From NCBI GenBank assembly GCA_036508135.1, contig DATCHW010000016.1:2500-66499 (forward strand): a stretch of DNA of 64,000 bases, written 5' to 3'. The notes under the pieces were generated by a model that was given only the letters and a program-made list of their open reading frames with translations, did no database searches and had not been told where the DNA came from. The DNA is from Ignavibacteria bacterium. Its GTDB lineage: Bacteria > Bacteroidota > Ignavibacteria > Tepidaquicellales > Tepidaquicellaceae. The translations under genes and the position numbers were made by a program. This document shows positions 9,744 through 58,020 of this stretch, piece after piece (the stretch's first letter is position 1; each line of letters opens with the position of its first letter).

Positions 9744-9747
9744 ATTT

Positions 9748-34540: not shown

Positions 34541-34700
34541 ATCCGTTCAATCCAACCGATTGAAAAATGAGCAGTTTTCCACTCATATTGCATTAAACAA
34601 TTCCTCGGTATGATCCTGAATAATCTATTCAATCGTGACACGGAACAGAGCAGCGAATAAATGTATGATCCCTTTTATTAAAACATAATCGTACTCAAGG
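34541..34700 (-). pseudogene. Highly degraded copy of the PHA-granule-like gene 3' part with terminator and flank
   Basis: ..tccgttcaatcc..aaaaatgagcagttttccactcat..caattcctcgg..ttcaatcgtgac..atcccttttatt.. parallels 55495-55640. Confidence 0.35.
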
Positions 34701-34935
34701 GGCAGGTTGGTCTAAACTTTAAAACCGTTAAGAAAATCTAGTCACTTGAATAAAAGACTTTCAAGACTGCCCGATAGTCTATATATCAGCACCTTAAATT
34801 CCACAAATGGCTGTCAATTCAACGTAAAATCAACTACCTTCAATGTAGTCGAAATATCTATATGATATTATCTGCAGTAAGTATAATATTCCTATTTATT
34901 CGTCTTTATTAATTCATAAATATAATCGAGAAATA

Positions 34936-36192
34936 ATGCGTTTAAAAATTTCTAAAATATTAAAGATTAGCATAATCTTCCTCCTGTTTTCAGTTTTTTC
35001 CAATGCTCAGGTTAAAATAACTTCCTATAACCTTTTAAACTATCCCGGAACAGATACTACAACGCGTAATCCTTATTTCCGCACTGTAATAAATTCCATA
35101 AATCCCGATATCCTCGTTGTTCAGGAAATTACTTCACAAGATGCTATAAATGGTTTTTTAAACGGTATTATGAACAGTAATGGAAATTTTTATAGTGCCG
35201 GTACATTTATCAACGGTCCTGATACAGATAACGGAATATTTTTTAAAACCTCTTTGTTTTCTTTTATCAGCAATACTCCTATTAAAACAGCTTTAAGGGA
35301 TATAAATGAATTTAAGCTCGTTTGTCTTTCCAATCTCGATACTTTAAGAATTTATTCTGCTCATTTAAAAGCAAGTACGGGTACTTCAAATGAATTGTCA
35401 AGAGCCGCCGAAGTTGACAGCCTTAGAAAAGTCACCAATACTTTGCCGTTTAATTCATATTTTATAGTTTGTGGTGATTTTAATCTTTATCGTTCAGGTG
35501 AGCCCGCTTATCAAAAATTGCTTGAAATAACAACCGGTAATTATGGCAATTTTAACGACCCTTTAAATATGATAGGAACATGGAATAATTCTGCATATGC
35601 ATCTTATCATACTCAATCATCAAGAGTTCGTTCTTTTGGTGGTGGTGCTTCGGGTGGTCTCGATGATAGATTTGATTTTATTTTATACTCAAGCGCAATT
35701 AAAAATCCGGGTAGATTAACTTATGTTTTAAATTCTTTGACCGCTTATGGCAACGATGGTAATCATTATAATGATTCAATTAATAAATCTCCCAATACAG
35801 TTGTTTCGCAGTTTATTGCTAATGCAATTCATTATGCTTCTGATCATCTTCCGATTTACGCATTGTTCTCTTTTTCAACAATCAGTTCTATCAATTTAAT
35901 GAATTCAAATATTCCTTCGGAATTTAAGTTGTCTCAGAATTACCCGAACCCATATAACCCAACAACAAAAATTATTTTTGATTTGCCGAAGGATGCTAAA
36001 GTCACACTTGTTATTTACGACATTCTTGGCAGGCAAATGGCTAAACTTGCAAGCGGAGAGTACAAGAAAGCGGGAACATACATGGTTGAATTCAACGGTC
36101 AGAATTACGTAAGCGGAGTTTACTTTTACAAAATAGTCGCGGAAGGTGAAACAAAGTATACCGCAGTGAAAAAGATGATGCTTGTGAAATGA
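34936..36192 (+). CDS. Endonuclease/exonuclease/phosphatase (EEP) family protein with T9SS C-terminal sorting domain
   Basis: 418 aa with a signal peptide. ILVVQEI, GDFNL, SDHLPIYALF. C-terminus LSQNYPNPYNPTTKIIFDLP..YFYKI. Confidence 0.85.
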   Translation: MRLKISKILKISIIFLLFSVFSNAQVKITSYNLLNYPGTDTTTRNPYFRTVINSINPDILVVQEITSQDAINGFLNGIMNSNGNFYSAGTFINGPDTDNGIFFKTSLFSFISNTPIKTALRDINEFKLVCLSNLDTLRIYSAHLKASTGTSNELSRAAEVDSLRKVTNTLPFNSYFIVCGDFNLYRSGEPAYQKLLEITTGNYGNFNDPLNMIGTWNNSAYASYHTQSSRVRSFGGGASGGLDDRFDFILYSSAIKNPGRLTYVLNSLTAYGNDGNHYNDSINKSPNTVVSQFIANAIHYASDHLPIYALFSFSTISSINLMNSNIPSEFKLSQNYPNPYNPTTKIIFDLPKDAKVTLVIYDILGRQMAKLASGEYKKAGTYMVEFNGQNYVSGVYFYKIVAEGETKYTAVKKMMLVK

Positions 36193-36425
36193 AGGGATCC
36201 CATAATTAATTTTGCATTAAAGATAAATTCATTTAATTAATATTGTAAGTTTTTTGAGCCTGTAAATATTTTTGTGTTTTTGGTATCCGCATTTAAAAAT
36301 CGAACCTGCATCTTTCTTCAAAGATAATTAAAAATTGACTTAGAATAAGTCCCCAGTTTCTTATACTGTGATTCCATTTTTTTTCGACAAAAAAAGAAAC
36401 GAGTCTAAATCAGTTCATTTTGTGC

Positions 36426-36461
36426 CATTGTTGGTGTTTGAGCGCAGCGACACCAACAATG
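36426..36461. repeat. Perfect 12-bp inverted repeat with a 12-nt loop between convergent genes
   Basis: CATTGTTGGTGT-ttgagcgcagcg-ACACCAACAATG; no flanking T-run on either strand. Confidence 0.8.
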
Positions 36462-36611
36462 TGAGATTGAAATGCATTTGGCGATGATAAAATTTAATTA
36501 AATGTAAAACTATTGGTTATAAAAAAACATCATTTTAAATAATTTGATGCGATATTTGTATAATTTCCATAAAAAGAGAACCGGGGATAAAGTATTTTTA
36601 TGATTCATTTT

Positions 36612-37325: not shown

Positions 37326-37475
37326 TATTATAAAAGGTGGTATAATAGTTTTAGGGCAGTAATGCTCTCGTTTTTTTCTGTGGGGAAGGGGTTTTTATTT
37401 TGTTCGTTTTAAAGGAAGGGAATAAAAAAGAAGGTCCCACATTAACTACAGCCATATTTTAAAAAAGCTGTGCTT

Positions 37476-40337: not shown

Positions 40338-40568
40338 TCATTTTTTCAGTAATTCTTCAGCGTGCATCCGAATTGTTTTTTCTATTGTTCTTTTAAAAGG
40401 TGCAGCCAGAAAGGGGATATCCCCTTTTATCAATACTTCTGACTCACTTATGGCTAAACTTCCGCTGACCTTGAAGCTTTTAATCTTAAATTTAAATTAT
40501 CCGGTGCTGCCCGACCAGGATTCTTCTAAATCACTGATTCGGTCTGAATGTTGGGCTTTTAAATCCGG
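40338..40568 (-). pseudogene. PHA-granule-like gene copy, 5'-truncated with an internal nonsense codon
   Basis: Aligns to 55535-55765. CAA is changed to TAA at 40497-40499. Homology ends at ..aaatccgg (40568). Confidence 0.75.
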
Positions 40569-40612: not shown

Positions 40613-41332
40613 TTATTCTAAACCCTTAGTCCCAAATTTATTATCGTTAGTGAAATCCTTAATATCACGGCGTACCCTTAAGTATTTTTCCGGTGTGGAA
40701 ACGGGATAACCTAAACGACAGGAAAAAGCAATCTTTAAATTTTCAGGAATATGAAGAATGTTTTTTACTTCTTCCTCTACTGTGTCTGCACTAAGGGAAC
40801 TCAGGATATGAAAGTTGATGCCAAGAGAATTTGCCATGAGCCACATATTTTCCATTACACATCCTAAACTCAAAATGCCCAGGAAATCGCCTTCGGAAGC
40901 CGGGGCTCGTTTAGCCGGATCATACACAACAATCAGCATTAATGGACATAACGGGAAAGGTCTTTGTATTGATGAATCCGCTTCCTCATCATATTTATCC
41001 AGCCTGAAATCAGGGACTCTCCAGGATGGAGGGAACATCGCAGCCAATATTCCTGTTTTTTTTCTAAGCAGCTCCTCCTCTGAAAAAGATAACTGCTGAT
41101 AGTTTTCCCGGATAAAGGTTTCTGATATCGGGCGTTTTATTTTTGCAATGGACTGCAGGATTTTTTCATCATCCACAACAATGATTTCAAAATTCTGCAT
41201 ATTATGCGCTGAAGGAGCCCAGCGTCCTGCTTCCAGTATTTTTAATAAATCCTGTTTCTCTATAGGATGTTTAGTGTCAAATGGCATCCTGGAAGATTGC
41301 CTTGCCTGCATGAGTTTTAATAATTCATTCAT
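40613..41332 (-). CDS. Nitroreductase family protein
   Basis: 239 aa; RQSSRMPFD and WAPSAHNMQNFEIIVV motifs. Confidence 0.8.
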   Translation of the reverse strand: MNELLKLMQARQSSRMPFDTKHPIEKQDLLKILEAGRWAPSAHNMQNFEIIVVDDEKILQSIAKIKRPISETFIRENYQQLSFSEEELLRKKTGILAAMFPPSWRVPDFRLDKYDEEADSSIQRPFPLCPLMLIVVYDPAKRAPASEGDFLGILSLGCVMENMWLMANSLGINFHILSSLSADTVEEEVKNILHIPENLKIAFSCRLGYPVSTPEKYLRVRRDIKDFTNDNKFGTKGLE

Positions 41333-41368
41333 ATTACCTCCTGATTTAAAAAAATATTTATTATTTAT

Positions 41369-42379
41369 TTATTGACCTATTTTCAACACTGACCTGAAAT
41401 GCACTTTTGCGGTCATCATTTTTTCATAAGCCAATGCCGCTTGTTCCAAAGGAAATACTTCAACCATTGGAATAATCTTAGTCATGACACTGAAATTAAG
41501 AGCATCTTTTATATTTCCTGTTACAAATCCGCGTATAGAACGTTCACCTCCCAATAAAAGCATTGGAGGTATCTGCATCATATCTCCGGCACCTGTAACA
41601 ATAATTGCCTGCCCGTTACGACCAAGTCCCGGAATTAAATCAGAGATTGCTTTCCCGCTTGGTGCTGTACAAAGAATTACCCGCGCACCGCCTAATTTCA
41701 TTAATTGCTTTACTGCTTCGCCTGTATCAGTATCGATATATACATGAGCACCCAGTTTATAAGCGAGTTCTTCCTTATCCTTGCCGCGGGATAATACTAC
41801 TGTTTTAAATCCTAATTTAACGGCATATTGCACAGCAAGATGTCCCAATCCTCCGAGTCCGTGAATTGCTACGACATCTCCGCCCTGAGCACCACTATGT
41901 ATTAATGCTCCAAAAGTTGTTCTGCCGGCACACAATATAGGTGCTGCATCTATTGAGCTCAGCTCATCAGGAATATTTACCACTGCTTCCGGTCGTGCTA
42001 TCATATATTCAGCATAACCGCCATCCAGGTGAATGCCCGTAGTTAAGGACTTCTCGCAGGCACCGAAATCACCTTTACGGCATGCACTGCACTGATTACA
42101 ATGACCACCGTGCCAGCCAACACCGACTCTTTGTCCTGCTTTCCAGTTAGTAACCATCGGTCCTATTTTATCTACTATCCCCACCACTTCATGCCCCGGA
42201 ACGATTGGATATTTAATTCCGGGAAAATGTCCTTCTTTGGCTATAGCATCTCCATGGCATATCCCGCATGCTTCTACTTTTATTAAAACTTCGTTATTCC
42301 CGGGTTCGGGAATTTCTTTCTGAATTATCTCAAAGTCTGCACCCGGTGAACTTACCTGAACTGCTTTCATTAACTGCAT
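41369..42379 (-). CDS. Zinc-dependent NAD(P) alcohol dehydrogenase
   Basis: 336 aa. GICHGD, GHEVVGIV, structural-Zn Cys cluster CNQCSACRKG, GLGGLGH Rossmann motif. Confidence 0.9.
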   Translation of the reverse strand: MQLMKAVQVSSPGADFEIIQKEIPEPGNNEVLIKVEACGICHGDAIAKEGHFPGIKYPIVPGHEVVGIVDKIGPMVTNWKAGQRVGVGWHGGHCNQCSACRKGDFGACEKSLTTGIHLDGGYAEYMIARPEAVVNIPDELSSIDAAPILCAGRTTFGALIHSGAQGGDVVAIHGLGGLGHLAVQYAVKLGFKTVVLSRGKDKEELAYKLGAHVYIDTDTGEAVKQLMKLGGARVILCTAPSGKAISDLIPGLGRNGQAIIVTGAGDMMQIPPMLLLGGERSIRGFVTGNIKDALNFSVMTKIIPMVEVFPLEQAALAYEKMMTAKVHFRSVLKIGQ

Positions 42380-42562: not shown

Positions 42563-42690
42563 TCATTTCTTCAAAAGTATCTCCGCCTTTTCCGGCAAAG
42601 GGATATCCCCTTTAATCAGTACATAGTTGTTTTCTACTAACAGGCTCCCGCTGACTTTGAAGCCTTTAATCTTGAATTTGAATTGTCCGG
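42563..42690 (-). pseudogene. PHA-granule-like gene, 3' half only (variant type, internal deletion)
   Basis: Encodes ..GQFKFKIKGFKVSGSLLVENNYVLIKGDIPLPEKAEILLKK* with its terminator hairpin. Homology stops at ATTGTCCGG (42682-42690). Confidence 0.7.
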
Positions 42691-42728: not shown

Positions 42729-43211
42729 CTATTCCGGTCTAGGATTTGAGCCGTTAAATAATCTCCATTTCCATTCGTTTCCTTTTTTAACCAGGATACC
42801 TGTAAATCGATATGGAGGTTTTCTTATTTTTCCTGCTTTAGTTTCTACTACCATTTTCCCATCAACAAATACCCAGGCAGTATTACCACTGTAATCAATA
42901 TCAATCCTGTCCATTTCCCAGGAAAAACTGGCATAATCAAAAAGTTGGGTTAGCCATTCTTTGATTTGATTTTTACCTTTAAATACTTCTCCGCTGTCCG
43001 AACCTACTAAGAGTATATTCTCAGAGTCATCAAATAGTGATATCGCTTGATCTACATTCGAATTCTTAGCAGCAGCATTCCACAGTTCCAATGCTTTAGT
43101 AATTTCGCCTTTGACATTATCGGTTAGAATTTGGGCAGTTAAAGAATTAGATACTACTAATAATAAGATGAATATTATTGTCCGAAGGAAAATGTTCTTT
43201 TTCATAATCAT
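42729..43211 (-). CDS. NTF2-like (SnoaL/DUF4440-type) secreted protein
   Basis: 160 aa. Signal peptide; size and pattern typical of NTF2-fold proteins. Confidence 0.55.
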   Translation of the reverse strand: MIMKKNIFLRTIIFILLLVVSNSLTAQILTDNVKGEITKALELWNAAAKNSNVDQAISLFDDSENILLVGSDSGEVFKGKNQIKEWLTQLFDYASFSWEMDRIDIDYSGNTAWVFVDGKMVVETKAGKIRKPPYRFTGILVKKGNEWKWRLFNGSNPRPE

Positions 43212-43236
43212 TTTTATTGTTTAATTATTTATTATC

Positions 43237-43365
43237 GCTAACGTTTTTTGGCTTGGCGAAGTGGGGAATTAAAAATACAAATGTTCAATTTAGTATAAAA
43301 GTACAATAGAATTCTAATGTCCAAATATAGTGCAAAAGCCCCCATTTTGCCAAACCAATGTTAGC
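43237..43365. repeat. 129-bp element bounded by long imperfect inverted repeats (MITE- or attC-like)
   Basis: GCTAAC-gtttttt-GGCTTGGCGAAGTGGGG ...72 nt... CCCCCATTTTGCCAAACC-aat-GTTAGC. 14 of 17 inner pairs are Watson-Crick; the outer boxes are perfect. Confidence 0.6.
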
Positions 43366-43427
43366 AGTAGGCGTTTTTGAGTTATTCATTTTTAATCTCG
43401 TTCCTCCGCCAACAATTTTATCATAAT

Positions 43428-43910: not shown

Positions 43911-44109
43911 TGCTTATATAAAGTTATATTTTTTTTCGTTATCGAATACTTGTTACTCTGTTATTGTTGGTTGTCGTCACGCTTACCGCTAAAGTATATA
44001 TTTATAATAAAAAGAAACCTGTACATCTATAATTATTCAGATTTAATTCTATAAACAAATTTATTTTTTGAAAAATTCAAATGGAAAGAAATATTCCTTT
44101 ATCAAAAAA

Positions 44110-44142
44110 CGAATATCCTCCCTAACTGCTGGAGGATATTCG
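44110..44142. repeat. Perfect 12-bp-stem hairpin, member of a repeated hairpin family
   Basis: CGAATATCCTCC-ctaactgct-GGAGGATATTCG. The same stem occurs at 44666 and 47002. Confidence 0.85.
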
Positions 44143-44567: not shown

Positions 44568-44665
44568 GTTATTTAATTTATTTATTCAATTAATTAAAGT
44601 ATTCTATTTTCTATCGCTTTCCCAATATATTAATTGCAAATGAAAACTAATATTCCCTTTATAAT

Positions 44666-47104: not shown

Positions 47105-49294
<2,190 letters not shown>

Positions 49295-49372
49295 TTATAA
49301 AGTAATAAACTATTTATTTCCTGATAAGGTTTCATAACACTGGCAGGTGATAAGGAACTCTGAGAGGAAAAA

Positions 49373-49936
49373 TTATCTTATTATAGTGTTGTGTTCATCT
49401 GTTACTATTCTTTTTTCCCATTCCCTTCTAGTTTGTTCCATTGTTTTTCTAATAAGTTCATCCGTTAATCCTAATCTGTCTGCATATATTTTTGTGTAAT
49501 TAGTGAGCTTTTCATCTAACACTTTTGCCCGTTCACAGAATTCAATAAAATCTTTTATCATCCTTTTCTGTCCACTATCGGAATAAAATAATTCATTATT
49601 AAATCGAAAATAATCATGAGTAATGTAGTTTCTTAATTTTAAAACATTATTTAATTCAATGCTATCTTCATCCGATAAATTATAAAGAACACTTACTTCT
49701 TTTATTAATTTCCCAAAAGTTCGTTTACCTAAGTCATAAGTATCCCATAGTTCATTAATTTCTTTTGGAGATCTCAAGTTATCTTTTGATTGTCGGAAAA
49801 CTGCAATCATATTAATAGATTGTTGCTCTAAAACTTGTGCACAAAATACTGCCTGTCCAAAATGAGCATAGATTTCTTTAGCTTTATTGTTACTATCTAA
49901 AGTCTCGAATAATTCAATTTCTGTCTTATAGTCCAT
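49373..49936 (-). CDS. HEPN-like (Rx4H motif) hypothetical protein
   Basis: 187 aa, predicted all-helical. ..LKLRNYITHDYF.. fits the HEPN R-x4-H catalytic motif. Confidence 0.45.
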   Translation of the reverse strand: MDYKTEIELFETLDSNNKAKEIYAHFGQAVFCAQVLEQQSINMIAVFRQSKDNLRSPKEINELWDTYDLGKRTFGKLIKEVSVLYNLSDEDSIELNNVLKLRNYITHDYFRFNNELFYSDSGQKRMIKDFIEFCERAKVLDEKLTNYTKIYADRLGLTDELIRKTMEQTRREWEKRIVTDEHNTIIR

Positions 49937-50094
49937 GTTTGATTCTTAAATTCTCCTTCCCAAGGTCTACCTTGAGAGGACATTGCTACAATTAGTAATT
50001 CTAATTTGTATTTGATTTTTATTCTTCTCACCTTCCCAAGGAAAGATTGAGAAGACGAGAAGAAATCATTCTTGAGCACTTTGGGATTTTCTCT

Positions 50095-50157
50095 GGTTAC
50101 TATGCTCCAGCGTAGTAACCATTTAATTTCCCGTTACAACGCCGGAGCATTGTAACG
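50095..50157 (-). other. Pair of 26-nt hairpins with mutually complementary loops in the leader of the HEPN-like gene
   Basis: GGTTACTA-tgctccagcg-TAGTAACC (50095-50120) and CGTTACA-acgccggagcat-TGTAACG (50132-50157). One unit is the near-exact reverse complement of the other. Confidence 0.6.
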
Positions 50158-50194
50158 AGAAATATCTATCATCCGTAACCGGAAAAAAACTTTT

Positions 50195-50223
50195 CCCCTC
50201 CTTCAAGCGAATAACAGGAGGGG
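50195..50223 (-). terminator. Rho-independent terminator after the membrane-protein gene
   Basis: Minus strand: CCCCTCCT-N13-AGGAGGGG followed by aaaagTTTTTTT. Confidence 0.65.
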
Positions 50224-50248
50224 GAATACGATGACGCGACGAACGTTT

Positions 50249-50794
50249 TCAAAAAACTTTTACACCTTTACACAAAATAAATTGTAATATTGATATTATC
50301 AGAAGAATAATGTAAAAAAACATGAGAAATAATGAAAGTTTTATCATTTGTTTCGATACTGAAGGTTTCTTTAGTATAGATTTTCTAATCATTAAATCAA
50401 ATTTATTTGGCTCTTTAATAGAATCATCAATTTGAAGAAATGATTCAACATCCTTATTAATTGTATCATAATTTACAGAGAAGAAATTCATTCCACTACC
50501 TGAAGTAGAGTGTTTTTCAAATTCTGCAGTTTTCTTTTCCCATCTTGTTTGCCAAAACTTGCTACCCAAATTAACTTTATACCATAATCTTGATACAATA
50601 ATTCCAAACACTGATATAATTATTGAGAATATTATATTATTCTTCAAATTTAATAAAACACCAGTAGCAATAGCAGTACATAAAATTAAGAAATAATTAC
50701 TCCTTTGCCAGAACATTTTTATTTCAAAATTACGAGTTTCAATTGCTAAATTATAAAATTCTTTATTATTTATTGATTCATTTGTATAATCCAT
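50249..50794 (-). CDS. Three-TM membrane protein (hypothetical, possible effector)
   Basis: Likely start MDYTNES.. (181 aa); the long ORF extends to 50884. ..RNFEIKMFWQRSNYFLIL.. is followed by two TM helices, a soluble segment, and a C-terminal TM. Confidence 0.6.
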   Translation of the reverse strand: MDYTNESINNKEFYNLAIETRNFEIKMFWQRSNYFLILCTAIATGVLLNLKNNIIFSIIISVFGIIVSRLWYKVNLGSKFWQTRWEKKTAEFEKHSTSGSGMNFFSVNYDTINKDVESFLQIDDSIKEPNKFDLMIRKSILKKPSVSKQMIKLSLFLMFFYIILLIISILQFILCKGVKVF

Positions 50795-50937
50795 ATTTAA
50801 TATTTTAAATATAAAAAAAATATTTTCTCCTCTTTCCCAAAGTCCTCTTTGGGAATGAAAAGAAAGTTCTACTTTTAATTGCAAAAATAATTTAGATAAA
50901 CACTTTTCCTACAATTTACCAATTTTATTTTAAAAAA

Positions 50938-50972
50938 AGACTTCAAAACCTTTCGGGTTTGAAGTCTTTTTG
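50938..50972. terminator. Bidirectional rho-independent terminator
   Basis: AAAAAAAGACTTCAAAACC-tttc-GGGTTTGAAGTCTTTTT. Confidence 0.7.
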
Positions 50973-51215
50973 TTTATCGTTGGGGGAGGTTAATCCGAAC
51001 GAAATTAATTTCTTATTTAAAGAAAAAAAAGAAATTCTCTCATCCACAACAAACGCCTGTATCCAGGCTCGTGCGGTTTATCTTTGTAAACATGCTTCAG
51101 AAATTGTGCTCACCTCCTTCACCGCATCAGGAAACTCGCTCACCTTTTCCCGCTTCATCATCATCGGGTATGTAAACAGCATAACACTTCTGCTCTACTT
51201 CCGGAAGTATCAATA

Positions 51216-51590
51216 TTATCCCTTAAACTTATCCTCCACCTCCTTCACCGCATCAAGAAACTCGCTCATCTTCTCCATCGCCACACCTTTCCCGACATTC
51301 GAAACGCTCTTCACTTCCTGCTGACGTATTTTCCACAACGGATGGCTTTCTGTAGCGCGCTCTTCCTTATCCGCCACCCAGTAAAACAAATCACTCGGCA
51401 GGCACTTCAGAGCCACGCACAATTTCTCTATATGCCCGGGAGTTAGCCCAGCCATTTTCTCCGTCCCGAGTCTCGAAGCCACATTCCGCGAAAACCCTTT
51501 TCTCCTCAAAAAAGCATAAGGTTGAGTAATTCCTCTCAGCTTCATCAGATTTTTAATGTTATATTTCAGCATAAATCTCCTTTTCTGCAA
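51216..51590 (-). CDS. XRE-type helix-turn-helix DNA-binding protein
   Basis: The likely start is MLKYNIKNLMKLRGI.. at 51572. HTH ..LRRKGFSRNVASRL.. and ..IEKLCVALKCLPSDLFYW... Sits next to the 21-bp repeat array. Confidence 0.7.
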   Translation of the reverse strand: MQKRRFMLKYNIKNLMKLRGITQPYAFLRRKGFSRNVASRLGTEKMAGLTPGHIEKLCVALKCLPSDLFYWVADKEERATESHPLWKIRQQEVKSVSNVGKGVAMEKMSEFLDAVKEVEDKFKG

Positions 51591-51653
51591 ATATAATAAT
51601 TCATTTCCACTTAATTAACACATTTTTCGAAACATTATTTTACGCCGCCCCTT

Positions 51654-52072
51654 CTCAATTTTATACTTCCAAACTCAATTAAAATCCTTTTCCTCTCAAT
51701 TCAAACACTTATCGTGTCAATTTATACTCTTGCCAGGTCGATTTCCACCCTTGGACACTCAATTTATATGTCTAACTACTCAATTGATATGCATTGCCAC
51801 TCAATTAATATGCATTGCCACTTAATAAATATGTATAAACACTCTATTAATATGCATACCTACCCAATTGATATGCATAGACACTTAGTTTGTATGTCTA
51901 AACACTTAATAAATATGCATAAACACTCTATTAATATGCATACCTACTCAATTGATATGTATAGACACTTAATTTGTATGCTTAACCACTCAATTTGTAT
52001 TACCGGTGATTAGATTTCTTCATCTTCCAATCCAATTTCCACCCCCGCCAATTCAATTTCCACCCCCGCCTT
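51654..52072. repeat. Array of 20 contiguous 21-bp direct repeats (iteron/centromere-like)
   Basis: The CTCAATT-type core recurs at 51654, 51674, 51695, 51716 ... 52052, spaced exactly 21 bp after the first unit. The best units read CACTCAATTRATATGCATNNN. An 84-bp higher-order repeat spans 51819-51986. Confidence 0.95.
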
Positions 52073-52184
52073 TTCCCTAATAGTTGATTCAATCTGACCT
52101 CTAAAGGGCAGAGCCAGAAAGGGGATATCCCCTTTTATCAATACTTCTGACTCACTTGCGGCCAAACTTCCGCTGACTTTAAAG
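52066..52184 (-). pseudogene. PHA-granule-like gene fragment (both ends replaced)
   Basis: ORF 52010..52216 encodes ..FKVSGSLAASESEVLIKGDIPFLALPFRGQIESTIREKA, then runs into the repeat array. It shares its 5' breakpoint with the 54696..54860 copy. Confidence 0.7.
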
Positions 52185-52359
52185 CAGGATACAGAATACT
52201 CCTTGGGGAATTTCATCTAAACTACGAGCTTGTGGGTTACTTTTAATTTCATTCAAAAGCATATCCGCAAATTTCTTTGGAATTTATAACATTCAATTTT
52301 GTTCTTTCTTATGTTTTTAAAAAAATTAAATAATCCCACACGGTTTATTTTTGTTATTT

Positions 52360-52737
52360 TCACCAGACATAAGCGTCTCCTACTCTTCTAACTTCTGATG
52401 GTGCTCTGTTGTGAATTAACATTGCAGTACTTAATGCAACTAAATAGTTATAATACTTTTCAATTTGAGCTTCATTGAAATGATGAATACAATATCCGGT
52501 TAAATGAATCTTCAATCTTTCTTTATCAAACTCTTTTGCAATTCTACTAATTGCAATTGATTTTAAGAAGATAGCTCTTGCTGTGCCACAATCAATTTTG
52601 TTATTTAAAATACACAATAATTCTTTAGTTCCTGCATTAACGTCTTTTTCACCTTTTGGGAACATAGAATCAAACATTTTATCTAATCGTTCCTTTAATG
52701 GAATTTTTTTATGTCTAAGAAAACTTAAGAAGCCCAT
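52360..52737 (-). CDS. Hypothetical protein
   Basis: 125-aa ORF, no motif recognised. Confidence 0.45.
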   Translation of the reverse strand: MGFLSFLRHKKIPLKERLDKMFDSMFPKGEKDVNAGTKELLCILNNKIDCGTARAIFLKSIAISRIAKEFDKERLKIHLTGYCIHHFNEAQIEKYYNYLVALSTAMLIHNRAPSEVRRVGDAYVW

Positions 52738-52876
52738 AATTTGTACTTTATCATTTGCCTACTCTAAATCGGTTTTCGGCTTTCCCCGTTATTTTATTCC
52801 TCTCAACAGTTTGCTTATACGAACATTTTCAAAACACATACAATTTAAAAAATAATTAATAAGGTAAATTGTCATA

Positions 52877-54139
52877 TTAATCTTTCCAAAATGCATTCGA
52901 CATTAATTCTTGCTCTTCTTTTGAAATGTTATGTTTTTTTGCATAAGTATTCCAATTACTTACAACTTTTTTAATTATGTTAATAATTTCTTTTGCATTT
53001 TTAGAGTTAACCCTAAAAAATTCTGCGACTTCTAATGCTAATTGTAAATCAAGAGAATTATCATTATCAGAAATATTTAAATTTAAACCGGTTCCCATTG
53101 GATTTGGATTAACATCATAGGCAGGTGACAAAGTCCAACCAGCTTGAGTTAGAAAAAAACCGTGATTTCTTAGATGGTCATCTGTGTTTTTGACACAAAT
53201 ATTAAAGACAATTCTTCTCCATATCTCTTCAAGGTCAGTATTAGTATTACTTCCGTTTCTAATTAAGAATTCTGCTAATTCCAAATAACTAACACCATCT
53301 GCATGGTCTGTATATCCTAACATAGTCATTGCGGAAGCAAAATGTATTCTTTTTCCATTTTCTTCTCTATCAAATCTTTTTGTAAGATACGTATGATGAT
53401 TTACCGTAAACTTTTTAACCATTCCTTTTGCTACGTTTATTCCTGATTTGACTGCTAACTCATTTGTGATCATTTCCCATAAGCCTTTGTCAATATCATC
53501 TTTTGTACTTGGAAATTTAGCAATCCATAAATGTTTTTTTTCATCTATTACACTTGCTTTCGGTCTAGCACCCCCTAATGAAGAACCGGGAGCAATTAAT
53601 AAATTCAACCATTTCATATAATCTGGATCTTCACTTATATTTTCCTTTTCCAATTGTAAACTGGCAAACTCTAAATCTCTAATTTCAGCCCAAGGAGGAG
53701 TAGCCATTTTTTTGTTATCGTTTAAGAATGGTCCTTCATTATTTTCTTTAAATCTTAAAGCTCCCATTCTATGTCCGTCAAATACACCTAATAGATAATC
53801 AGTTTCTAACAGAGTTTTTTCGCTTCTCTTTTCTCGTTTTGCTAAAGCTGCTTCACGTCTTTTCATCAATACCCTTCCCCATCTATCAGGAGACGAATCT
53901 AAAAAAACTCCAAAATTCTCTTTTTCATCTCTCAAATATTGAGAGCCTCTATATAGCTGTAAATCCGGATCGAGTGTTTGAGCTATCCCTGATTTTAACC
54001 ATTTCTCGTCATATTCAAAAGAAAAAATTTCTTTACCTCTTGAAAGAACAACATTTAATATTCCCATCAGTTCTGGTCTTTCAAATTCTCTCCAATCAGC
54101 ATATACGTATAATTGTTTTTTACTTTCCTTATGTGCCAT
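52877..54139 (-). CDS. hipA: HipA-family serine/threonine kinase toxin
   Basis: 420 aa. N-terminal coupling domain (LYVYADW..GIL). Kinase motifs GGARPKASV and TDDHLRNHGF. Confidence 0.9.
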   Translation of the reverse strand: MAHKESKKQLYVYADWREFERPELMGILNVVLSRGKEIFSFEYDEKWLKSGIAQTLDPDLQLYRGSQYLRDEKENFGVFLDSSPDRWGRVLMKRREAALAKREKRSEKTLLETDYLLGVFDGHRMGALRFKENNEGPFLNDNKKMATPPWAEIRDLEFASLQLEKENISEDPDYMKWLNLLIAPGSSLGGARPKASVIDEKKHLWIAKFPSTKDDIDKGLWEMITNELAVKSGINVAKGMVKKFTVNHHTYLTKRFDREENGKRIHFASAMTMLGYTDHADGVSYLELAEFLIRNGSNTNTDLEEIWRRIVFNICVKNTDDHLRNHGFFLTQAGWTLSPAYDVNPNPMGTGLNLNISDNDNSLDLQLALEVAEFFRVNSKNAKEIINIIKKVVSNWNTYAKKHNISKEEQELMSNAFWKD

Positions 54140-54460
54140 TTATTTTGTTTTGATTTTAGGGGCTCTTTTCTTTTCTAATATTTTTGCGTCTTGAAGTTTT
54201 CGTCCAAGAATATCGTCTTTCGCAATATTTAATAGATCTTTTTCCAAACCCAATACAAAAATAACCTGTGCATATGCTCCCATTGAAACTCGAGGTGACC
54301 CTTTTTCAATTTGCCATAATGTAACTCTATTAACATCTGCTCTTTCTGCAACTTGAGTAGTGCTTAGTTTTCTTCGTAGTCTGGCAAGTTTTATATTTAT
54401 TCCCAAATCAGCCAAAATTTCTATGACTGAAGGGGATATTCCTGAATTTATTTCTTTCAT
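54140..54460 (-). CDS. XRE-family HTH antitoxin (HipB-like)
   Basis: 106 aa. ..LSTTQVAERADVNRVTLWQIEKG... Its stop abuts the hipA start. Confidence 0.8.
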   Translation of the reverse strand: MKEINSGISPSVIEILADLGINIKLARLRRKLSTTQVAERADVNRVTLWQIEKGSPRVSMGAYAQVIFVLGLEKDLLNIAKDDILGRKLQDAKILEKKRAPKIKTK

Positions 54461-54695: not shown

Positions 54696-54860
54696 TCATT
54701 TCTTCAAAAGTATCTCCGCCTTTTCCCGAATTGTTGATTCAATGGTGCCGTTAAAAGGTGTAGCCAGCAAAGGGATATCCCCTTTTATCAATACGTAGTT
54801 GTTTTCTACTAATAGGCTCCAGCTGACTTTGAAACCTGATACAGCGAAATCGGCTTGCAT
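54696..54860 (-). pseudogene. PHA-granule-like gene, 5'-truncated variant copy
   Basis: Encodes ..SGFKVSWSLLVENNYVLIKGDIPLLATPFNGTIESTIREKAEILLKK* with a terminator hairpin aatgag-N10-ctcatt. Confidence 0.65.
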
Positions 54861-54990: not shown

Positions 54991-55323
54991 TCAAATTCCC
55001 ATGTTGGCCAGCATACTTGCAATTTTATTAACTTTATCAACTAACTTCGGATGTGATACTTCAAACTCTTTAACCGATGCATATAAACCGTCAATAGACA
55101 ATTTGAAAAGATTTGAATTTTTATGCTTTCGGGTCGCTTCGTGAGTGGAACGTTCCATAAAACCAACTATGCTTTCGGCATGCTCTGCTTTCGATTTAGC
55201 TAATTCTGAAATTTCTTTCTTAAGTTTCACAATTAAACTAAGAAGCTCAGATTTTTTTTCTTTGCTGAGAATATCATATGTGCGAATTTTCTCTTCGATA
55301 TTTTCAAGTGTATTCTTTTTCAT
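54991..55323 (-). CDS. DUF4404-like small helical protein
   Basis: 110 aa, coiled. The C-terminus ..HPKLVDKVNKIASMLANMGI is typical of DUF4404. Preceded by element E3. Confidence 0.5.
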   Translation of the reverse strand: MKKNTLENIEEKIRTYDILSKEKKSELLSLIVKLKKEISELAKSKAEHAESIVGFMERSTHEATRKHKNSNLFKLSIDGLYASVKEFEVSHPKLVDKVNKIASMLANMGI

Positions 55324-55357
55324 TTAATTTCTAATTTAAATTATTTACAAAATGAAT

Positions 55358-55432
55358 GTAATAATCCTTTGAGTGCGATCAGTGGATTATTTGTTTGGTG
55401 AAAATTACTAAGTTTGGAAATTAAAACAAATG
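55358..55432 (-). promoter_or_regulatory. Conserved promoter plus 5' hairpin element, copy E3
   Basis: Minus strand: TTTG-N19-TAATTTTC, then AATAATCC-N16-GGATTATT hairpin. Confidence 0.5.
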
Positions 55433-55534
55433 AATTATTCAAAGTTCAAAGTGTTGATTATATGTGAAATAGAATAAAAGTACAAATTTCTATTCTGTTC
55501 GGATTTATCAAAAAAATGAGCAATTTTGTAATGC

Positions 55535-55843
55535 TCATTTCTTCTGCAACAATTCCTCCGCCTTTTCCCTAATAGTTGATTCAATCTGACCTCTAAAGGG
55601 CAGAGCCAGAAAGGGAATATCCCCTTTTATCAATACTTCTGACTCACTTACGACCAAACTTCCGCTGACCTTGAAGCCTTTAATCTTGAATTTAAATTGT
55701 CCGGTGCTGCCCGACCAGGATTCTTCTAAATCACTGATTCGGTCTGAATGTTGGGCTTTTAAATCCGGAAGGAATTGTTGGATTCGGGTTAAAGCTTCTG
55801 TTTGAGTTAGTTCGTGTGGTACTTTTATTTCTAGTTTTGGCAT
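55535..55843 (-). CDS. Polyhydroxyalkanoic-acid-system (PHA_gran_rgn)-like small protein, the only intact copy
   Basis: 102 aa. MPKLEIKVPHELTQTEALTRIQQFL...W.G....F.F...G..V.G.L.V....V.I.G..PF...PF...IE..I fits the family pattern as I recall it. Confidence 0.6.
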   Translation of the reverse strand: MPKLEIKVPHELTQTEALTRIQQFLPDLKAQHSDRISDLEESWSGSTGQFKFKIKGFKVSGSLVVSESEVLIKGDIPFLALPFRGQIESTIREKAEELLQKK

Positions 55844-56460
55844 GATTTTATTTTATGATAGTTAGAGATAGTATTCTCTAATTTCAAAAACAATGTTAAA
55901 ATGATTATTAAATAACATACGCATTAAGTCATAAATAATTTAATCATGCGAGTAGCAGAACTATTGCAGTTACTTCATAATTAACGTAACCGTAGTACAA
56001 TTCTAATAAAGGTAACTTATTATGATAAAGGCATCAATACAAGACCGTAGTTCTATTGATAGTAATGCATCATAATATTGCAGGAAGGAAGGATCTTCAT
56101 GAATGATTCAACCAAAGAAACGAAAAAGTTATGTACAGTCTGTAAACAAACTATAAGACATAATTTGCTATTCAGAGATCTCAGAGGAAGCAATACCAGT
56201 AAGTAATAACAGTTAGTTTTAACCGTTAAGGAAGAAAGTAGATATTATTCAGGAAAGCCGTATAAGGAAAAACCGAGCGTACAATTTGATGAGGAGTCAA
56301 GAGAAACAGACTGCTACTACAGAAGTATAGCAACCTTGTCCCACTCTATAATATTATCGATAATCGGTATCAAGAAACGTATTAAAAAGAAAGCAGGTCT
56401 AAGCCTGCCTTCTTTATTAAAAAAATTCAGAGAAATAATTTACTATTAGTAAATTTGTCG

Positions 56461-57678
56461 TTATTTAATCAACGTCATTCTCTTTGTCTCGGTGTAATTT
56501 TCGGTTTCAAATCTATAAAAATATATTCCACTAGAATAATTACTTGCATTCCAAATAACTTCATAAACTCCCGGATTCATTTCTTCATTTATTAAGTACT
56601 CAAGCAACCTTCCGTTTATATCATAAATATTCAATTTGACATAACTTGATTTGGGAATCTCAAATTTTATGTTAGTCGATGGATTAAATGGATTGGGAAA
56701 GTTTTGATGTAGCATGAAATCTGAAGGAATTTTATTGTTACCGTTCGTTGTGAATGTCAAACCACCATCTGTAGTATTATAAATCTGTCCTACGTCTCCG
56801 ACAGCCCATCCAAGATTGAGATTGACAAAATATGCCGCACGAACCCAGCCGGTCAACGTACTAACTTGTACAATCCAATTACTACCACCATTCGTTGTTT
56901 TCATCACTATTCCGCCATCACCTGTGATGTAACCGGTTGTGTTGTCAATAAAATATGTGCAATATAAAGAACCTGTATATGGACTTGTCTGCGAAACCCA
57001 GCTGTTACCACCATCCGTTGTTTTCTTAATTAAGCCATTTGATCCAACACCATATCCCGTCGATTCACTCGGAAAATGTATGGAAAAAAACATAGTTGTT
57101 GTTCCGGTAACAACGGAATCCCAGTTTGTTCCTGCATTTGTTGTTTTCAGAATTTTTCCTCCTTGACCGCCTATCCAGCCCGTACTCGGATTGATAAAAA
57201 ATATGCTGTAAAGAAGTGTAGACCCGGCACCTGTTTGCGCTGTCCAGTTGTTTCCCGCATCCGTTGTTTTCATTATTTTCCCGCTGAGACCCACAAAATA
57301 TCCTATTGAATCACTCGTGAAATATATCGAATAATTGTTTGTTGAACCAAGGGTTTGTGTTGTCCAGTTTTCCCCCGCATTGGTCGTCTTTGAAAAATGA
57401 CCGGTTGCTCCTGCAATGTATCCGGTTGTCGGAGAAGTAAAGCATACACCATATAAATATTTTGTAGTAAAACTTATTTGAGTTGACCAGTTAACTCCTC
57501 CATTGGTTGTTTTAAGTATTGTCCCGCTTTGTCCGACTACCCAGCCGGTATTTTCATTTATAAATTTTACGGACCAGAGAATATTTGATGTTCCGCTTAA
57601 TTGTTGAGTCCATTGAGCATTTAAACCGGTTATAAATAAAAAAAGAGTAATAACGGATAATACGATTAGCTTTTTCAT
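56461..57678 (-). CDS. BNR/Ycf48-like beta-propeller protein with T9SS C-terminal sorting domain
   Basis: 405 aa with a signal peptide. Repeats ..KTT(N/D)(A/G)G.NW... C-terminus LHQNFPNPFNPSTNIKFEIP..YFYRF. Confidence 0.85.
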   Translation of the reverse strand: MKKLIVLSVITLFLFITGLNAQWTQQLSGTSNILWSVKFINENTGWVVGQSGTILKTTNGGVNWSTQISFTTKYLYGVCFTSPTTGYIAGATGHFSKTTNAGENWTTQTLGSTNNYSIYFTSDSIGYFVGLSGKIMKTTDAGNNWTAQTGAGSTLLYSIFFINPSTGWIGGQGGKILKTTNAGTNWDSVVTGTTTMFFSIHFPSESTGYGVGSNGLIKKTTDGGNSWVSQTSPYTGSLYCTYFIDNTTGYITGDGGIVMKTTNGGSNWIVQVSTLTGWVRAAYFVNLNLGWAVGDVGQIYNTTDGGLTFTTNGNNKIPSDFMLHQNFPNPFNPSTNIKFEIPKSSYVKLNIYDINGRLLEYLINEEMNPGVYEVIWNASNYSSGIYFYRFETENYTETKRMTLIK

Positions 57679-57874
57679 AATGTTATTTTTTTAAAAATGT
57701 TAAAAAACATAAAAGAAACGATTCAATTGTCTAAAATATAAATTGTTTATATTTTTGAGTTGTTGGAAATGTTTTACCTTTTCCTGTACAACATTACCGC
57801 TTTCCTTTTGTAAAATCAATTCTAAAAACAAATATTATTTCAAAAATCAACAGAGAAAATTTCTGATGAACGGC

Positions 57875-58020
57875 ATTGTCCGGTGCTTCCGGACCAGGAT
57901 TCTTCTAAATCACTGATTCGGTCTGAATGTTGGACTTTTAAATCCGGAAGGAATTGTTGGATTCGGGTTAAAGCTTCTGTTTGAATTAGTTTGTGTGGTA
58001 TTTTTATTTCGAGTTTTGGT
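57875..58020 (-). pseudogene. PHA-granule-like gene, 5' half only, start codon lost
   Basis: Encodes PKLEIKIPHKLIQTEALTRIQQFLPDLKVQHSDRISDLEESWSGSTGQ, then unrelated sequence. Homology begins at ATTGTCCGG (57875-57883). Confidence 0.7.

What the first reader, a model, noticed from the sequence alone, without database searches (positions are those of the whole stretch)
34541..58020. At least seven copies or fragments of one small PHA-granule-like gene punctuate a 24-kb mosaic of unrelated genes
Only 55535..55843 is intact. The other copies, all on the minus strand, are listed here. 34541-34700 is very degraded. 40338-40568 is 5'-truncated with a CAA-to-TAA change. 42563-42690 is a 3' half with an internal deletion. 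52066-52184 has both ends replaced. 54696-54860 is 5'-truncated and shares its breakpoint and the flanking ..gatacag.. with the 52-kb copy. 57875-58020 is a 5' half without a start codon. Two sequence types exist (..VSESEVLIKG.. and ..VENNYVLIKG..). The gene's terminator (aaaaatgagca..N..ctcatt) and a downstream junction motif (TCYGTTCGGATTT..TTCGACAAAA..AAAACGAG) also recur alone at about 13505-13545, 33268-33300 and 36375-36415. The fragments sit at the borders between blocks of functionally unrelated genes: nitroreductase plus ADH, NTF2 plus VOC, hipBA, DUF4404, and T9SS proteins. This resembles the displaced orphan modules of Rhs/CDI loci, where retained homology tracts let new cargo be swapped in by recombination. 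No recombinase gene is present in the window.
Basis: seen in the sequence. Interest (0 to 1): 0.7.

Follow-up and report, generated by a model that had tools for sequence, protein, structure and literature searches.

The report
Gene-fragment scars mark a cargo-swapping hotspot
In an Ignavibacteria genome, one small intact gene and six broken copies of it mark the seams of a strain-variable gene array, and comparison with close relatives shows that blocks of genes are gained, lost and swapped by recombination inside these copies, with no recombinase gene in or near the region examined.

Summary
A profile search finds exactly seven PHA_gran_rgn (PF09650) copies, all on the minus strand. One is intact (55535-55843). 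Five are 5'-truncated and one is a 5' half. DNA-only remnants of the gene's 3' end lie at 36.4 and 37.4 kb. Independent metagenome assemblies reproduce the layout, so it is not a chimera.

Close relatives (about 95-99.6% nucleotide identity in the flanks) differ block by block, and the boundaries fall in PHA copies:
- One relative has a single intact gene where the window has 15.2 kb of extra DNA flanked by CCGGACAAT.
- Another relative is 99.6% identical downstream of one fragment but has different cargo upstream. The switch point lies inside the fragment.
- Copies exchange sequence by gene conversion.
- No recombinase or transposase domain occurs in the window or in 10 kb of called genes beyond its right end.

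Best explanation: homology-anchored serial displacement, as proposed for Rhs, CDI and T6SS orphan arrays. The difference is that the anchor here is a small helix-grip protein gene, not a toxin gene. The cargo is detoxification, toxin-antitoxin and secreted-protein genes. Recombination at the copies is shown; how the junctions first formed is inferred.

I rate it a new variant of a known kind, of moderate interest.

The parts
58195..59661 (-). DUF6600 gene. This is the stable upstream flank of the array, present next to the PHA gene in all relatives.
   Evidence: PF20245. It is collinear with the M13 peptidase, Pirin and Trx9 genes in L008 and L042.
57875..58019 (-). PHA 5' remnant (gene nt 4-148), start codon lost. 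This is the in-place resident copy.
   Evidence: HMM 1.2e-19. Its upstream intergenic region is orthologous to the DUF6600-PHA spacer of L008, L012 and L027. In strain L051 it still has an ATG.
57875..57883 (-). CCGGACAAT, the left copy of the 9-bp direct repeat flanking 15,184 bp that L008 lacks.
56461..57678 (-). Cargo: BNR/Ycf48-like protein with a T9SS sorting tail.
   Evidence: PF14870 and PF18962
55535..55843 (-). The only intact PHA_gran_rgn gene (102 aa).
   Evidence: PF09650 E 1.6e-16. AF2 pLDDT 88, beta-alpha-beta5-alpha helix-grip, with weak SRPBCC/Bet v 1-like matches.
55509..55541 (-). Intrinsic-terminator-like hairpin (atgagca-N9-tgctcat plus a T run) overlapping the stop codon. 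Homology between copies ends just after it.
   Evidence: Read directly from the sequence. The equivalent hairpin of the 54.8-kb copy is called by the scan.
55350..55444 (-). Leader element 'beta' (promoter-like TTTG..TAnnTTTC plus a hairpin) upstream of DUF4404. Further copies lie at 37241-37336 and 34402-34489.
54991..55323 (-). Cargo: DUF4404.
   Evidence: PF14357. It is adjacent to PHA also in the distant MAG L021.
54699..54837 (-). PHA 3' fragment (nt about 165 to the end, 'VENNY' type). It contains the crossover point (about 54796) at which strain L055 switches to other upstream cargo.
52360..54460 (-). Cargo: hipB-hipA plus a 125-aa ORF. GC3 is low (0.18-0.21).
   Evidence: HipA_C 2.3e-47 and HTH_31; GC3
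52063..52185 (-). PHA internal fragment (nt 167-289), 95% identical to the intact copy.
47105..52070 (-). Cargo: 21-nt repeat array, HTH_26 gene, 8xMP, a 187-aa ORF and KatG.
42729..46853 (-). Cargo: BNR T9SS protein (689 aa), small ORFs, VOC/glyoxalase-like and SnoaL-like genes.
42563..42690 (-). PHA 3' fragment (nt 140 to the end, with a 42-nt deletion). It begins with the right copy of CCGGACAAT (42682-42690). The same junction is present in L012.
40613..42379 (-). Cargo: Zn-ADH plus nitroreductase.
   Evidence: these two proteins are 97-100% identical in L008 and L012.
40338..40568 (-). PHA 3' fragment (nt 76 to the end, CAA changed to TAA). This is the oldest junction seen in all three relatives that cover it. 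Its nt 76-240 were overwritten by intact-type sequence in this genome.
37388..37429 (-). Remnant of post-terminator sequence without PHA, homologous to 42504-42545.
36379..36421 (-). Remnant of the PHA stop codon and terminator (40.5-kb type). Collinearity with L008 ends here.
   Evidence: z = 8.3
34592..34774 (-). Most degraded PHA 3' fragment, followed by a terminator and a beta leader.
   Evidence: tblastn 8.6e-6; HMM 6.8e-7; nhmmer 0.001

Best explanation
This is a strain-variable accretion locus downstream of a stable flank (M13 peptidase, then DUF6600). It is built and reshuffled by ordinary recombination that uses the small PHA_gran_rgn gene as its homology tract.

Proposed steps:
1. 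DNA carrying a PHA copy, or part of one, plus foreign genes enters. It may be a circle that integrates by a single crossover, or a linear piece with one homologous end and one illegitimate end.
2. It recombines with the resident PHA gene. This leaves one intact gene and a truncated duplicate at the far side of the new cargo, and pushes older modules further from DUF6600.
3. The resulting same-strand repeats then allow three things: deletion of the blocks between them, exchange of upstream cargo between strains by crossover inside a fragment, and gene conversion between fragments and the intact gene.
4. The fragments decay with age.

Shown: the copies themselves; block-wise differences between relatives bounded by the copies; a crossover inside a fragment; gene conversion; absence of a recombinase in the sequence examined.

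Inferred: the direction of each event (gain or loss), how the DNA entered the cell, whether circles are involved, and how the non-homologous junctions formed.
For: 1. Seven copies, all co-oriented, with one intact.

2. Five states of the same locus occur in relatives whose flanking proteins are 94-100% identical. L008 has DUF6600-PHA-ADH-NTR-fragment-TPR. L012 has PHA, a small fragment, SnoaL, a fragment, then ADH-NTR and a fragment. L042 has PHA, a PEMT-like gene and urocanase. L055 and the window are the other two.

3. L008's single PHA gene aligns to the 58.0-kb remnant (nt 1-148) and to the 42.7-kb fragment (nt 140 to the end). The window therefore has 15,184 extra bp inside one gene.

4. 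Junction age fits polar growth. The nt-76 junction is identical in three genomes and the nt-140 junction in two. The junctions nearest DUF6600 occur only in the window lineage. Decay increases with distance from DUF6600.

5. L055 is 99.6% identical to window 54796-42022. Upstream it has a DinB-like ORF and a longer, different PHA fragment. The switch lies in the conserved stretch GTATTGATAAAAGGGGATATCCC inside the fragment. A window-type contig from the same sample ends there.

6. Gene conversion. The 40.5-kb copy is 64/64 identical to the intact gene over nt 76-139. Its orthologues in L008 and L012 are 87-89% identical there and carry a 1-nt deletion, while the flanks are 98-100% orthologous. 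The intact gene of L051 carries the middle segment of the 54.8-kb fragment.

7. Intact alleles share a 98-100% identical core (nt 76-166) but are 64-95% identical elsewhere. Every breakpoint seen inside the window lies within or at the edge of that core.

8. Another block in the same region is also flanked by partial duplications: 1.28 kb in L008, with repeats of about 80 nt.

9. GC3 differs between blocks (0.18 to 0.44), as expected for imports from different sources.

10. No recombinase or transposase domain was found.

11. The same logic has been proposed for Rhs tips (homologous recombination through a circular intermediate; PMC2935791) and for T6SS effector-immunity arrays (homology-facilitated illegitimate recombination; PMC5361080).
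Against: - Two independent 5' breakpoints begin exactly at CCGGA. The 9-mer CCGGACAAT ends one remnant and begins another, like a target-site duplication or an att core. Two junctions share CTGTATC. A purely random illegitimate join does not predict this.
- Cargo blocks end only 38-174 nt after their last stop codon. That is tidier than random end-joining would suggest unless selection removed the rest.
- The direction of events (insertion or deletion) cannot be fixed from five states.
- Competence, conjugation and circular intermediates are all unknown for this organism.
- Only part of the genome was seen, so a recombinase acting in trans cannot be excluded.
Confidence: 0.62

Rival explanations
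1. Site-specific cassette or island integration. A recombinase encoded elsewhere (integron-like, Xer-like, or a lost island integrase) recognises short sites within the PHA gene. It inserts circular cargo there and leaves core duplications.
For: - A 9-bp direct repeat, CCGGACAAT, flanks the 15.2-kb insert relative to L008.
- Two other junctions start at CCGGA, and two share CTGTATC.
- All cargo is co-oriented, and the blocks end close to stop codons.
- In other Ignavibacteria, PHA copies or fragments lie near tyrosine integrases and defence islands (L037 with tRNA-Leu plus an integrase; L045).
Against: - Breakpoints sit at about seven different positions (nt about 63, 76, about 102, 140, 148, 165, 167), not at one core.
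- There is no sequence similarity between the putative attP and attB arms, and no terminal inverted repeats (read).
- No recombinase occurs in the 64-kb window or among the called genes over 10 kb beyond its right end.
- PHA was not found in viral contigs.
- The L055 switch point lies in a long stretch of identity, as homologous recombination would give.
- CCGG is not avoided in this genome, so a restriction-linked origin has no support.
Confidence: 0.13
2. Silent-cassette variation system. The truncated copies are kept as a reservoir that diversifies the C-terminal half of the expressed protein by gene conversion, as pilS copies do for pilE. The cargo is incidental.
For: - There is one expressed copy and several promoterless truncated copies on the same strand.
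- The expressed gene differs between strains L051 and the window by a segment identical to a silent fragment.
- A conversion tract is seen in the 40.5-kb copy.
- The alleles are mosaics with a conserved core and variable 3' halves.
Against: - By eye I see no signal peptide, and the predicted helix-grip fold suggests a small intracellular ligand-binding protein, not a surface antigen.
- The fragments carry stop codons and deletions and lie 2-10 kb apart, separated by functional genes.
- Most relatives in other genera have a single copy.
- Conversion is also seen from the intact gene into a fragment, which has no adaptive reading.
Confidence: 0.08
3. Static paralogue decay. The gene was duplicated locally several times in an ancestor and the copies simply decayed. 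The blocks between them are ordinary resident genes.
For: - Tandem intact duplicates exist elsewhere: L050 has PHA, an 86-aa ORF, then PHA.
- Some junctions are old and are shared by several genomes.
Against: - Block-wise presence and absence occur among relatives at about 95-99.6% identity.
- GC3 is heterogeneous across blocks.
- Each truncation carries a different non-homologous junction directly after cargo.
- A recent crossover lies inside a fragment.
Confidence: 0.05
4. Assembly artefact. The fragments are chimeric joins created by a multi-copy gene in a metagenome assembly.
For: Several assemblies break their contigs inside PHA copies (L003, L004, L063-L065, L067).
Against: - Long contigs from independent samples and assemblers span the whole array at 99.6-100% identity.
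- The fragments have unique flanks and their own mutations.
Confidence: 0.01

Closest known systems
Rhs C-terminal displacement and orphan tips (Jackson et al. 2009, PMC2935791; read)
   Same: One full gene is followed on the same strand by displaced 3' pieces that keep a fragment of the conserved core. The core is conserved and the 3' part is variable. The authors' proposed mechanism is homologous recombination that excises and inserts core-fragment-plus-tip units through a circular intermediate, with no dedicated recombinase.
   Different: The anchor here is a 102-aa helix-grip protein gene, not a large YD-repeat toxin gene. The modules carry enzymes, a toxin-antitoxin pair and secreted proteins rather than toxin tips with immunity genes. 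A 5' remnant upstream of the intact copy also occurs.
Vibrio cholerae T6SS effector-immunity arrays (Kirchberger et al. 2017, PMC5361080; read)
   Same: Successive insertions next to a conserved upstream region push old modules downstream and leave 3' remnants. Intermediate states are found in related strains. The authors propose a mechanism akin to homology-facilitated illegitimate recombination. No integrase is known.
   Different: There is no secretion system and no effector-immunity logic here. The homology tract here is itself duplicated and reused for crossovers.
CDI orphan cdiA-CT/cdiI modules (Poole et al. 2011, PMC3150448; only title and abstract seen; the comparison rests on my own knowledge)
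   Same: Arrays of 5'-truncated gene pieces with downstream partners that retain homology to the full gene.
   Different: Those are toxin-immunity pairs. That is not the case here.
Chromosomal integron cassette arrays (own knowledge)
   Same: A co-oriented array of small, functionally diverse genes, including toxin-antitoxin, VOC and NTF2-like types. New units are added at one end.
   Different: No IntI and no attC-like sites were found. Junction positions vary. Boundaries are pieces of a protein-coding gene.
pilE/pilS-type silent-copy gene conversion (own knowledge)
   Same: One expressed gene plus truncated silent copies, with segmental transfer between them.
   Different: The protein appears to be intracellular. 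The silent copies are degraded and interspersed with unrelated genes.

Membership tests
PHA_gran_rgn (PF09650) protein family, for the repeated gene itself | Profile match above Pfam's gathering score over the full domain. | tested here: met
   60.8 bits against a cut-off of 26.6, profile positions 2-87 of 87. There are 51 homologues, mostly from Ignavibacteria.
Rhs/CDI-type displacement (orphan-module) array | An intact gene followed on the same strand by truncated copies that keep part of the conserved region plus a variable 3' part. | tested here: met
   Five 5'-truncated copies lie downstream of the intact gene. The core (nt 76-166) is 98-100% conserved among alleles, and the 3' parts are 64-86% identical.
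Rhs/CDI-type displacement (orphan-module) array | Modules gained or lost as units between related genomes, with boundaries in the repeated gene. | tested here: met
Rhs/CDI-type displacement (orphan-module) array | The anchor gene encodes a polymorphic toxin (YD/Rhs repeats or CdiA) with a cognate immunity gene immediately downstream. | tested here: not met
   The anchor is PF09650 with a helix-grip fold. The cargo is ADH, nitroreductase, SnoaL, DUF4404, hipBA, KatG and T9SS proteins. The locus therefore works like such an array but is not a member.
Integron or CALIN cassette array | An IntI-type tyrosine recombinase with attI next to the array. | tested here: not met
   No Phage_integrase domain in the scanned window ORFs or among the called genes over 10 kb beyond the right edge. 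tblastn with two integrases was negative.
Integron or CALIN cassette array | attC sites (imperfect inverted repeats with R''/R' boxes) after each cassette. | not tested
   No attC model was available. By eye, the boundaries are pieces of coding sequence followed by a 7-bp-stem terminator, which does not look like attC.
Integrase-mediated tandem islands at a target gene | The same att core duplicated at every junction, and an integrase inside each island. | tested here: not met
   Junctions lie at nt 76, 140, 148, 165 and 167, with only one 9-bp direct-repeat pair. No integrase was found.
Homology-facilitated illegitimate recombination products | One homologous anchor, and one junction without homology (microhomology at most). 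| tested here: inconclusive
   The junctions have non-homologous flanks, and the upstream flank is homologous. The donor sequences are unknown, so microhomology cannot be scored. The duplication of the target fits a circular single-crossover better.
Homology-facilitated illegitimate recombination products | The host takes up linear DNA (natural competence or interrupted conjugation). | not testable with these tools
   Only 64 kb of the genome, plus flanks, was seen.
Silent-cassette gene conversion (pilE/pilS-like) | Segmental transfer from silent copies into the expressed gene. | tested here: inconclusive
   The intact gene of L051 has the middle segment of the 54.8-kb fragment. Neither the direction of transfer nor within-population switching is shown.
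Silent-cassette gene conversion (pilE/pilS-like) | The product is a surface-exposed antigen or receptor under diversifying selection. | tested here: not met
   By eye I see no signal peptide. The model is a compact helix-grip fold.

The most novel reading that the evidence does not exclude
The PHA gene may be more than a passive scar site. Its near-invariant 91-nt core and its truncated copies could act as a portable attachment tract, making the locus in effect an 'integron without an integrase'. In that reading, units of PHA fragment plus cargo circularise by recombination between repeats, move between co-occurring Ignavibacteria strains, and re-insert at any PHA gene. The preferred break sites (CCGGA and CCGGACAAT) would reflect a specific nicking or recombination activity encoded elsewhere. 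As a by-product, the fragments would diversify the expressed protein.
Probability: 0.15. Interest if true: 0.8.

Novelty: new variant of a known kind. Interest (0 to 1): 0.5.

Why it matters
Serial-displacement arrays have been described mainly for toxin systems (Rhs, CDI, T6SS), where selection for immunity explains why old modules are kept. This locus shows the same architecture around an ordinary small gene, in a little-studied group (Ignavibacteria).

The cargo is stress, detoxification, toxin-antitoxin and secreted-protein genes. Intermediate states, and a crossover inside a fragment, are visible among co-occurring strains.

This suggests that homology-anchored displacement is a general, recombinase-free route by which bacterial accessory regions grow and exchange cargo. 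It also suggests that short pseudogene fragments at block borders can be read as a record of that history. For practical annotation, such fragments explain recurrent contig breaks in metagenome assemblies.

Tried and rejected
- Homologue search with the flanking DUF6600 protein, to sample more strains. Low-complexity candidates swamped it and it returned nothing closer than 49% identity.
- The first PHA alignment was too diverse for locus scanning.
- The metagenome scan gave mostly short contigs.
- The viral-contig scan found no PHA relatives.
- Rfam found no family at gathering score in the window or in three related loci. Only weak sub-threshold hits appeared.
- PADLOC found no defence family for ten of the cargo and array proteins (including the PHA and DUF4404 proteins); one spurious weak Cas9 hit.
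- Restriction-cut origin of the CCGGA breakpoints. CCGG is not under-represented (ratio 1.01), whereas GGCC, CTAG and GATC are. The idea has no support.
- Transposon origin of the 15.2-kb insert. Its ends carry no terminal inverted repeats and the window has no transposase.
- dif/Xer-like reading of the TGTAT-containing junction flanks. Inspected by eye only; the arms are not palindromic. Dropped.
- The isolated motif at 33268-33300 is not above chance.
- Possible PHA-end remnants at 44.7 kb and 47.0 kb are marginal (z = 4.5 and 2.0) and are not counted.
- The apparent extension of the 54.8-kb fragment to aa 41 in protein alignments is about 30% nucleotide identity by my count, so I treat nt 165 as a true breakpoint.

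Full report
WHAT IS THERE

The window has 34.5% G+C. Source names attached to homologues place it in the Ignavibacteria.

The gene at 55535-55843 (minus strand) encodes a 102-aa protein that matches Pfam PF09650 (PHA_gran_rgn) over the whole domain (E 1.6e-16). An AlphaFold model has mean pLDDT 88 and a beta-alpha-beta5-alpha helix-grip topology. Its matches to solved SRPBCC/Bet v 1-like proteins are only weak (best E 2e-3, TM 0.5-0.67). It looks like a small ligand-binding protein, not an enzyme of DNA metabolism and not a toxin.

A profile built from 28 family members and run against the six-frame translation of the window finds exactly seven copies, all on the minus strand. BLAST gives the same set.

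In gene coordinates the pieces are:
- 58.0 kb: nt 4-148.
- 54.8 kb: nt about 165 to the end.
- 52.2 kb: nt 167-289.
- 42.7 kb: nt 140 to the end, with a 42-nt deletion.
- 40.5 kb: nt 76 to the end, with CAA changed to TAA.
- 34.7 kb: heavily degraded.

Homology between copies stops right after the terminator hairpin that overlaps the stop codon. Remnants of only that 3' end or its downstream sequence lie at 36379-36421 (z = 8.3), 37388-37429 and 13499-13539 (z = 12.4). The site claimed at 33.3 kb is chance.

NOT AN ARTEFACT

Contigs from independent assemblies (ENA, JGI, Logan) are 99.6-100% identical to the window and span the fragments. Several other assemblies break inside PHA copies. That is what a repeat carrying strain variation does to short-read assemblers.

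COMPARISON WITH RELATIVES

Five states of the locus were recovered.

- L008 has flanking proteins 94-100% identical to the window and about 95% nucleotide identity. Its order is M13 peptidase, DUF6600, intact PHA, ADH, nitroreductase, PHA fragment (nt 76 to the end), then the TPR gene.
- L012 has DUF6600, intact PHA, a small fragment, SnoaL, a fragment (nt 140 to the end), ADH, nitroreductase, and a fragment (nt 76 to the end).
- L042 and L027 have DUF6600, PHA, a PEMT-like gene and urocanase.
- L051 has the window's arrangement at the DUF6600 end, but its 5' remnant still has a start codon.
- L055 is described below.

In whole-locus alignment, L008's single PHA gene matches the 58.0-kb remnant through nt 148 and the 42.7-kb fragment from nt 140. 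The window therefore carries 15,184 extra bp (42691-57874) inside one gene, flanked by the 9-mer CCGGACAAT.

The junction 'aataaccgc|CCGGATTT' (nt 76) is identical in three genomes. The junction 'ttaattg|CCGGACAAT' (nt 140) is identical in two. The junctions close to DUF6600 are private to the window lineage. Decay increases with distance from DUF6600. This polarity fits growth at the DUF6600 end.

Collinearity between L008 and the window ends at 36379, exactly at a PHA-end remnant.

DIRECT EVIDENCE THAT THE COPIES ARE RECOMBINATION TRACTS

L055 is a 13.4-kb contig that is 99.6% identical to window 54796-42022. That stretch covers hipBA through to the start of the ADH gene. Upstream of that point L055 has a DinB-like ORF and a longer PHA fragment of another sequence type. 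The window instead has DUF4404 and the 5' part of the 54.8-kb fragment.

The switch lies inside the fragment, in the stretch GTATTGATAAAAGGGGATATCCC that all copies share. A window-type contig from the same sample ends at that place. Co-occurring strains therefore carry different upstream cargo joined to identical downstream DNA through a crossover within a PHA fragment.

GENE CONVERSION

The 40.5-kb copy is 64/64 identical to the intact gene over nt 76-139 and about 93% identical to nt 240. Its orthologues in L008 and L012 are 85-89% identical there and share a 1-nt deletion. The junction flank and the 3' end are 98-100% orthologous. The window's copy was therefore overwritten.

The 3' end of the 42.7-kb copy resembles the 54.8-kb copy rather than its own orthologue. 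The intact gene of L051 carries a middle segment nearly identical to the 54.8-kb fragment, whereas the window's intact gene carries the other type.

Intact alleles are mosaics. Their core (nt 76-166) is 98-100% identical, while the 5' parts are 80-95% and the 3' parts 64-86% identical. Every breakpoint seen in the window lies in or at the edge of that core.

NO RECOMBINASE

Pfam scans of nearly all called ORFs of the window found no integrase, transposase or resolvase. That covers all genes of the region 33-60 kb and most outside it. The ORFs at 53-2687 and 59928-63945 were not scanned by me; some of the 59928-63945 ORFs have precomputed annotations.

tblastn with two Ignavibacteria tyrosine integrases was negative. 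The called genes over 10 kb beyond the right edge are housekeeping-type genes. The window has no tRNA gene. No Rfam family reaches its gathering score.

The insert has no terminal inverted repeats.

MECHANISM

The structure is an intact gene, cargo, a non-homologous junction, then a truncated duplicate. The reciprocal form is a 3'-truncated remnant upstream of cargo and the intact gene.

Both forms are what a single crossover between the resident gene and a circular molecule carrying a truncated copy produces. This is the model Jackson et al. proposed for Rhs tips (PMC2935791).

Homology-facilitated illegitimate recombination gives a similar product. It was proposed for V. cholerae T6SS effector-immunity arrays (PMC5361080) and described in naturally competent species (PMC3240628).

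A second block in the same region is also flanked by a partial duplication: 1.28 kb in L008, with repeats of about 80 nt, where the window has a single copy. This favours a general repeat-mediated process over a PHA-specific enzyme.

GC3 ranges from 0.18 (hipBA, 8xMP) to 0.44 (KatG) against about 0.28-0.38 for the flanks. This is consistent with imports from several sources.

I put this explanation at about 0.6. Recombination within the copies is shown. The origin of the junctions, the route of DNA entry and the direction of each step are inferred.

WHAT DOES NOT FIT NEATLY

Two independent 5' breakpoints start exactly at the gene's only two CCGG sites (CCGGA). CCGGACAAT ends one remnant and starts another. 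Two junctions share CTGTATC. By a rough estimate of my own, the chance probability is near 1%.

CCGG is not avoided in this genome, so restriction cutting is not supported. With about seven different breakpoints, and no similarity between the putative attachment arms, a single site-specific system is unlikely. A recombinase or nickase acting in trans cannot be excluded, and I give this rival 0.13.

The silent-cassette reading gets some support from L051. However, the protein looks intracellular and the fragments are degraded (0.08). Static paralogue decay and assembly artefact are largely refuted.

WIDER CONTEXT

Most other Ignavibacteria loci recovered carry a single PHA gene in varied surroundings. 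There are exceptions. L050 has two intact copies separated by an 86-aa ORF and a weak 3' remnant.

L036 and L037 have only fragments next to restriction-enzyme and other genes that look defence-related to me. In L037 there is a tRNA-Leu gene and an integrase about 7 kb upstream. DUF4404 is adjacent to PHA in a distant MAG. The gene therefore tends to sit in variable regions, but the seven-copy array is specific to this species cluster.

VERDICT

The locus works like an Rhs/CDI/T6SS displacement array but is not a member of those families, because the defining toxin-immunity content is absent. I rate it a new variant of a known kind, with interest about 0.5.

Noticed in passing
51674-52070 and 51216-51590 (minus strand): About 400 nt of 21-nt tandem repeats (11.4 copies, consensus CACTCAATTAATATGCATAAC, plus two shorter arrays). 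They lie directly upstream of a Cro/C1-type HTH_26 gene and abut the 3' breakpoint of the 52.2-kb PHA fragment. They look like an iteron or operator array, perhaps from a plasmid-like element.
   Followed up: partly
55350-55444, 37241-37336, 34402-34489 (minus strand); also L020 4984-5069, L037 7733-7796, L017 8571-8652: A conserved leader with a promoter-like TTTG..TAnnTTTC and a hairpin (AATAATCC..GGATTATT) precedes three unrelated cargo genes (DUF4404, a 190-aa ORF, a 161-aa lipoprotein-like ORF). In other Ignavibacteria it is followed by about 250 nt of conserved, structured-looking sequence that has no Rfam family.
   Followed up: partly
52756-52789 (minus strand): Sub-threshold match to the DUF805b RNA motif (27.3 bits against a gathering score of 35.6, E 5.8e-4), upstream of the 125-aa ORF.
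   Followed up: no
44074-44148, 44632-44736, 46990-47070: Three copies of a hairpin family (gcgaatatcctcc..ggaggatatt), each downstream of a cargo gene. The 44.7-kb copy may include the last codons of a PHA gene (z = 4.5).
   Followed up: partly
5209-13251 (plus strand): A restriction or defence cluster: a PLD-SNF2 helicase (apparently split between 5209-7431 and 7788-8555), a YhcG PDDEXK nuclease, and an Eco57I/MmeI-type methylase. GC3 is low, at 0.23-0.28.
   Followed up: no
whole window: The palindromes GGCC (observed/expected 0.20), CTAG (0.31) and GATC (0.34) are strongly under-represented. CCGG is not (1.01).
   Followed up: no
17257-18014 with 22364-23121; 23537-23976 with 26984-27417; 18877-19255 with 19582-19960: Large internal duplications (about 87% identity) lie in and around the cluster of giant secreted or T9SS-type proteins.
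   Followed up: no
38114-38195; L008 14670-14751 and 16033-16114: L008 carries an extra 1.28-kb block (a 149-aa ORF plus a Fib_succ_major protein) flanked by direct repeats of about 80 nt. The window has a single copy of that sequence. This is a second example of a block bounded by a partial duplication.
   Followed up: partly
L037 2646-3951; L045 261-1286: In other Ignavibacteria, a tyrosine integrase (next to tRNA-Leu in L037) lies 1-7 kb from a PHA gene or fragment. In L037 and L036, restriction-enzyme and other genes that look defence-related to me follow. The two integrases are 33% identical.
   Followed up: partly
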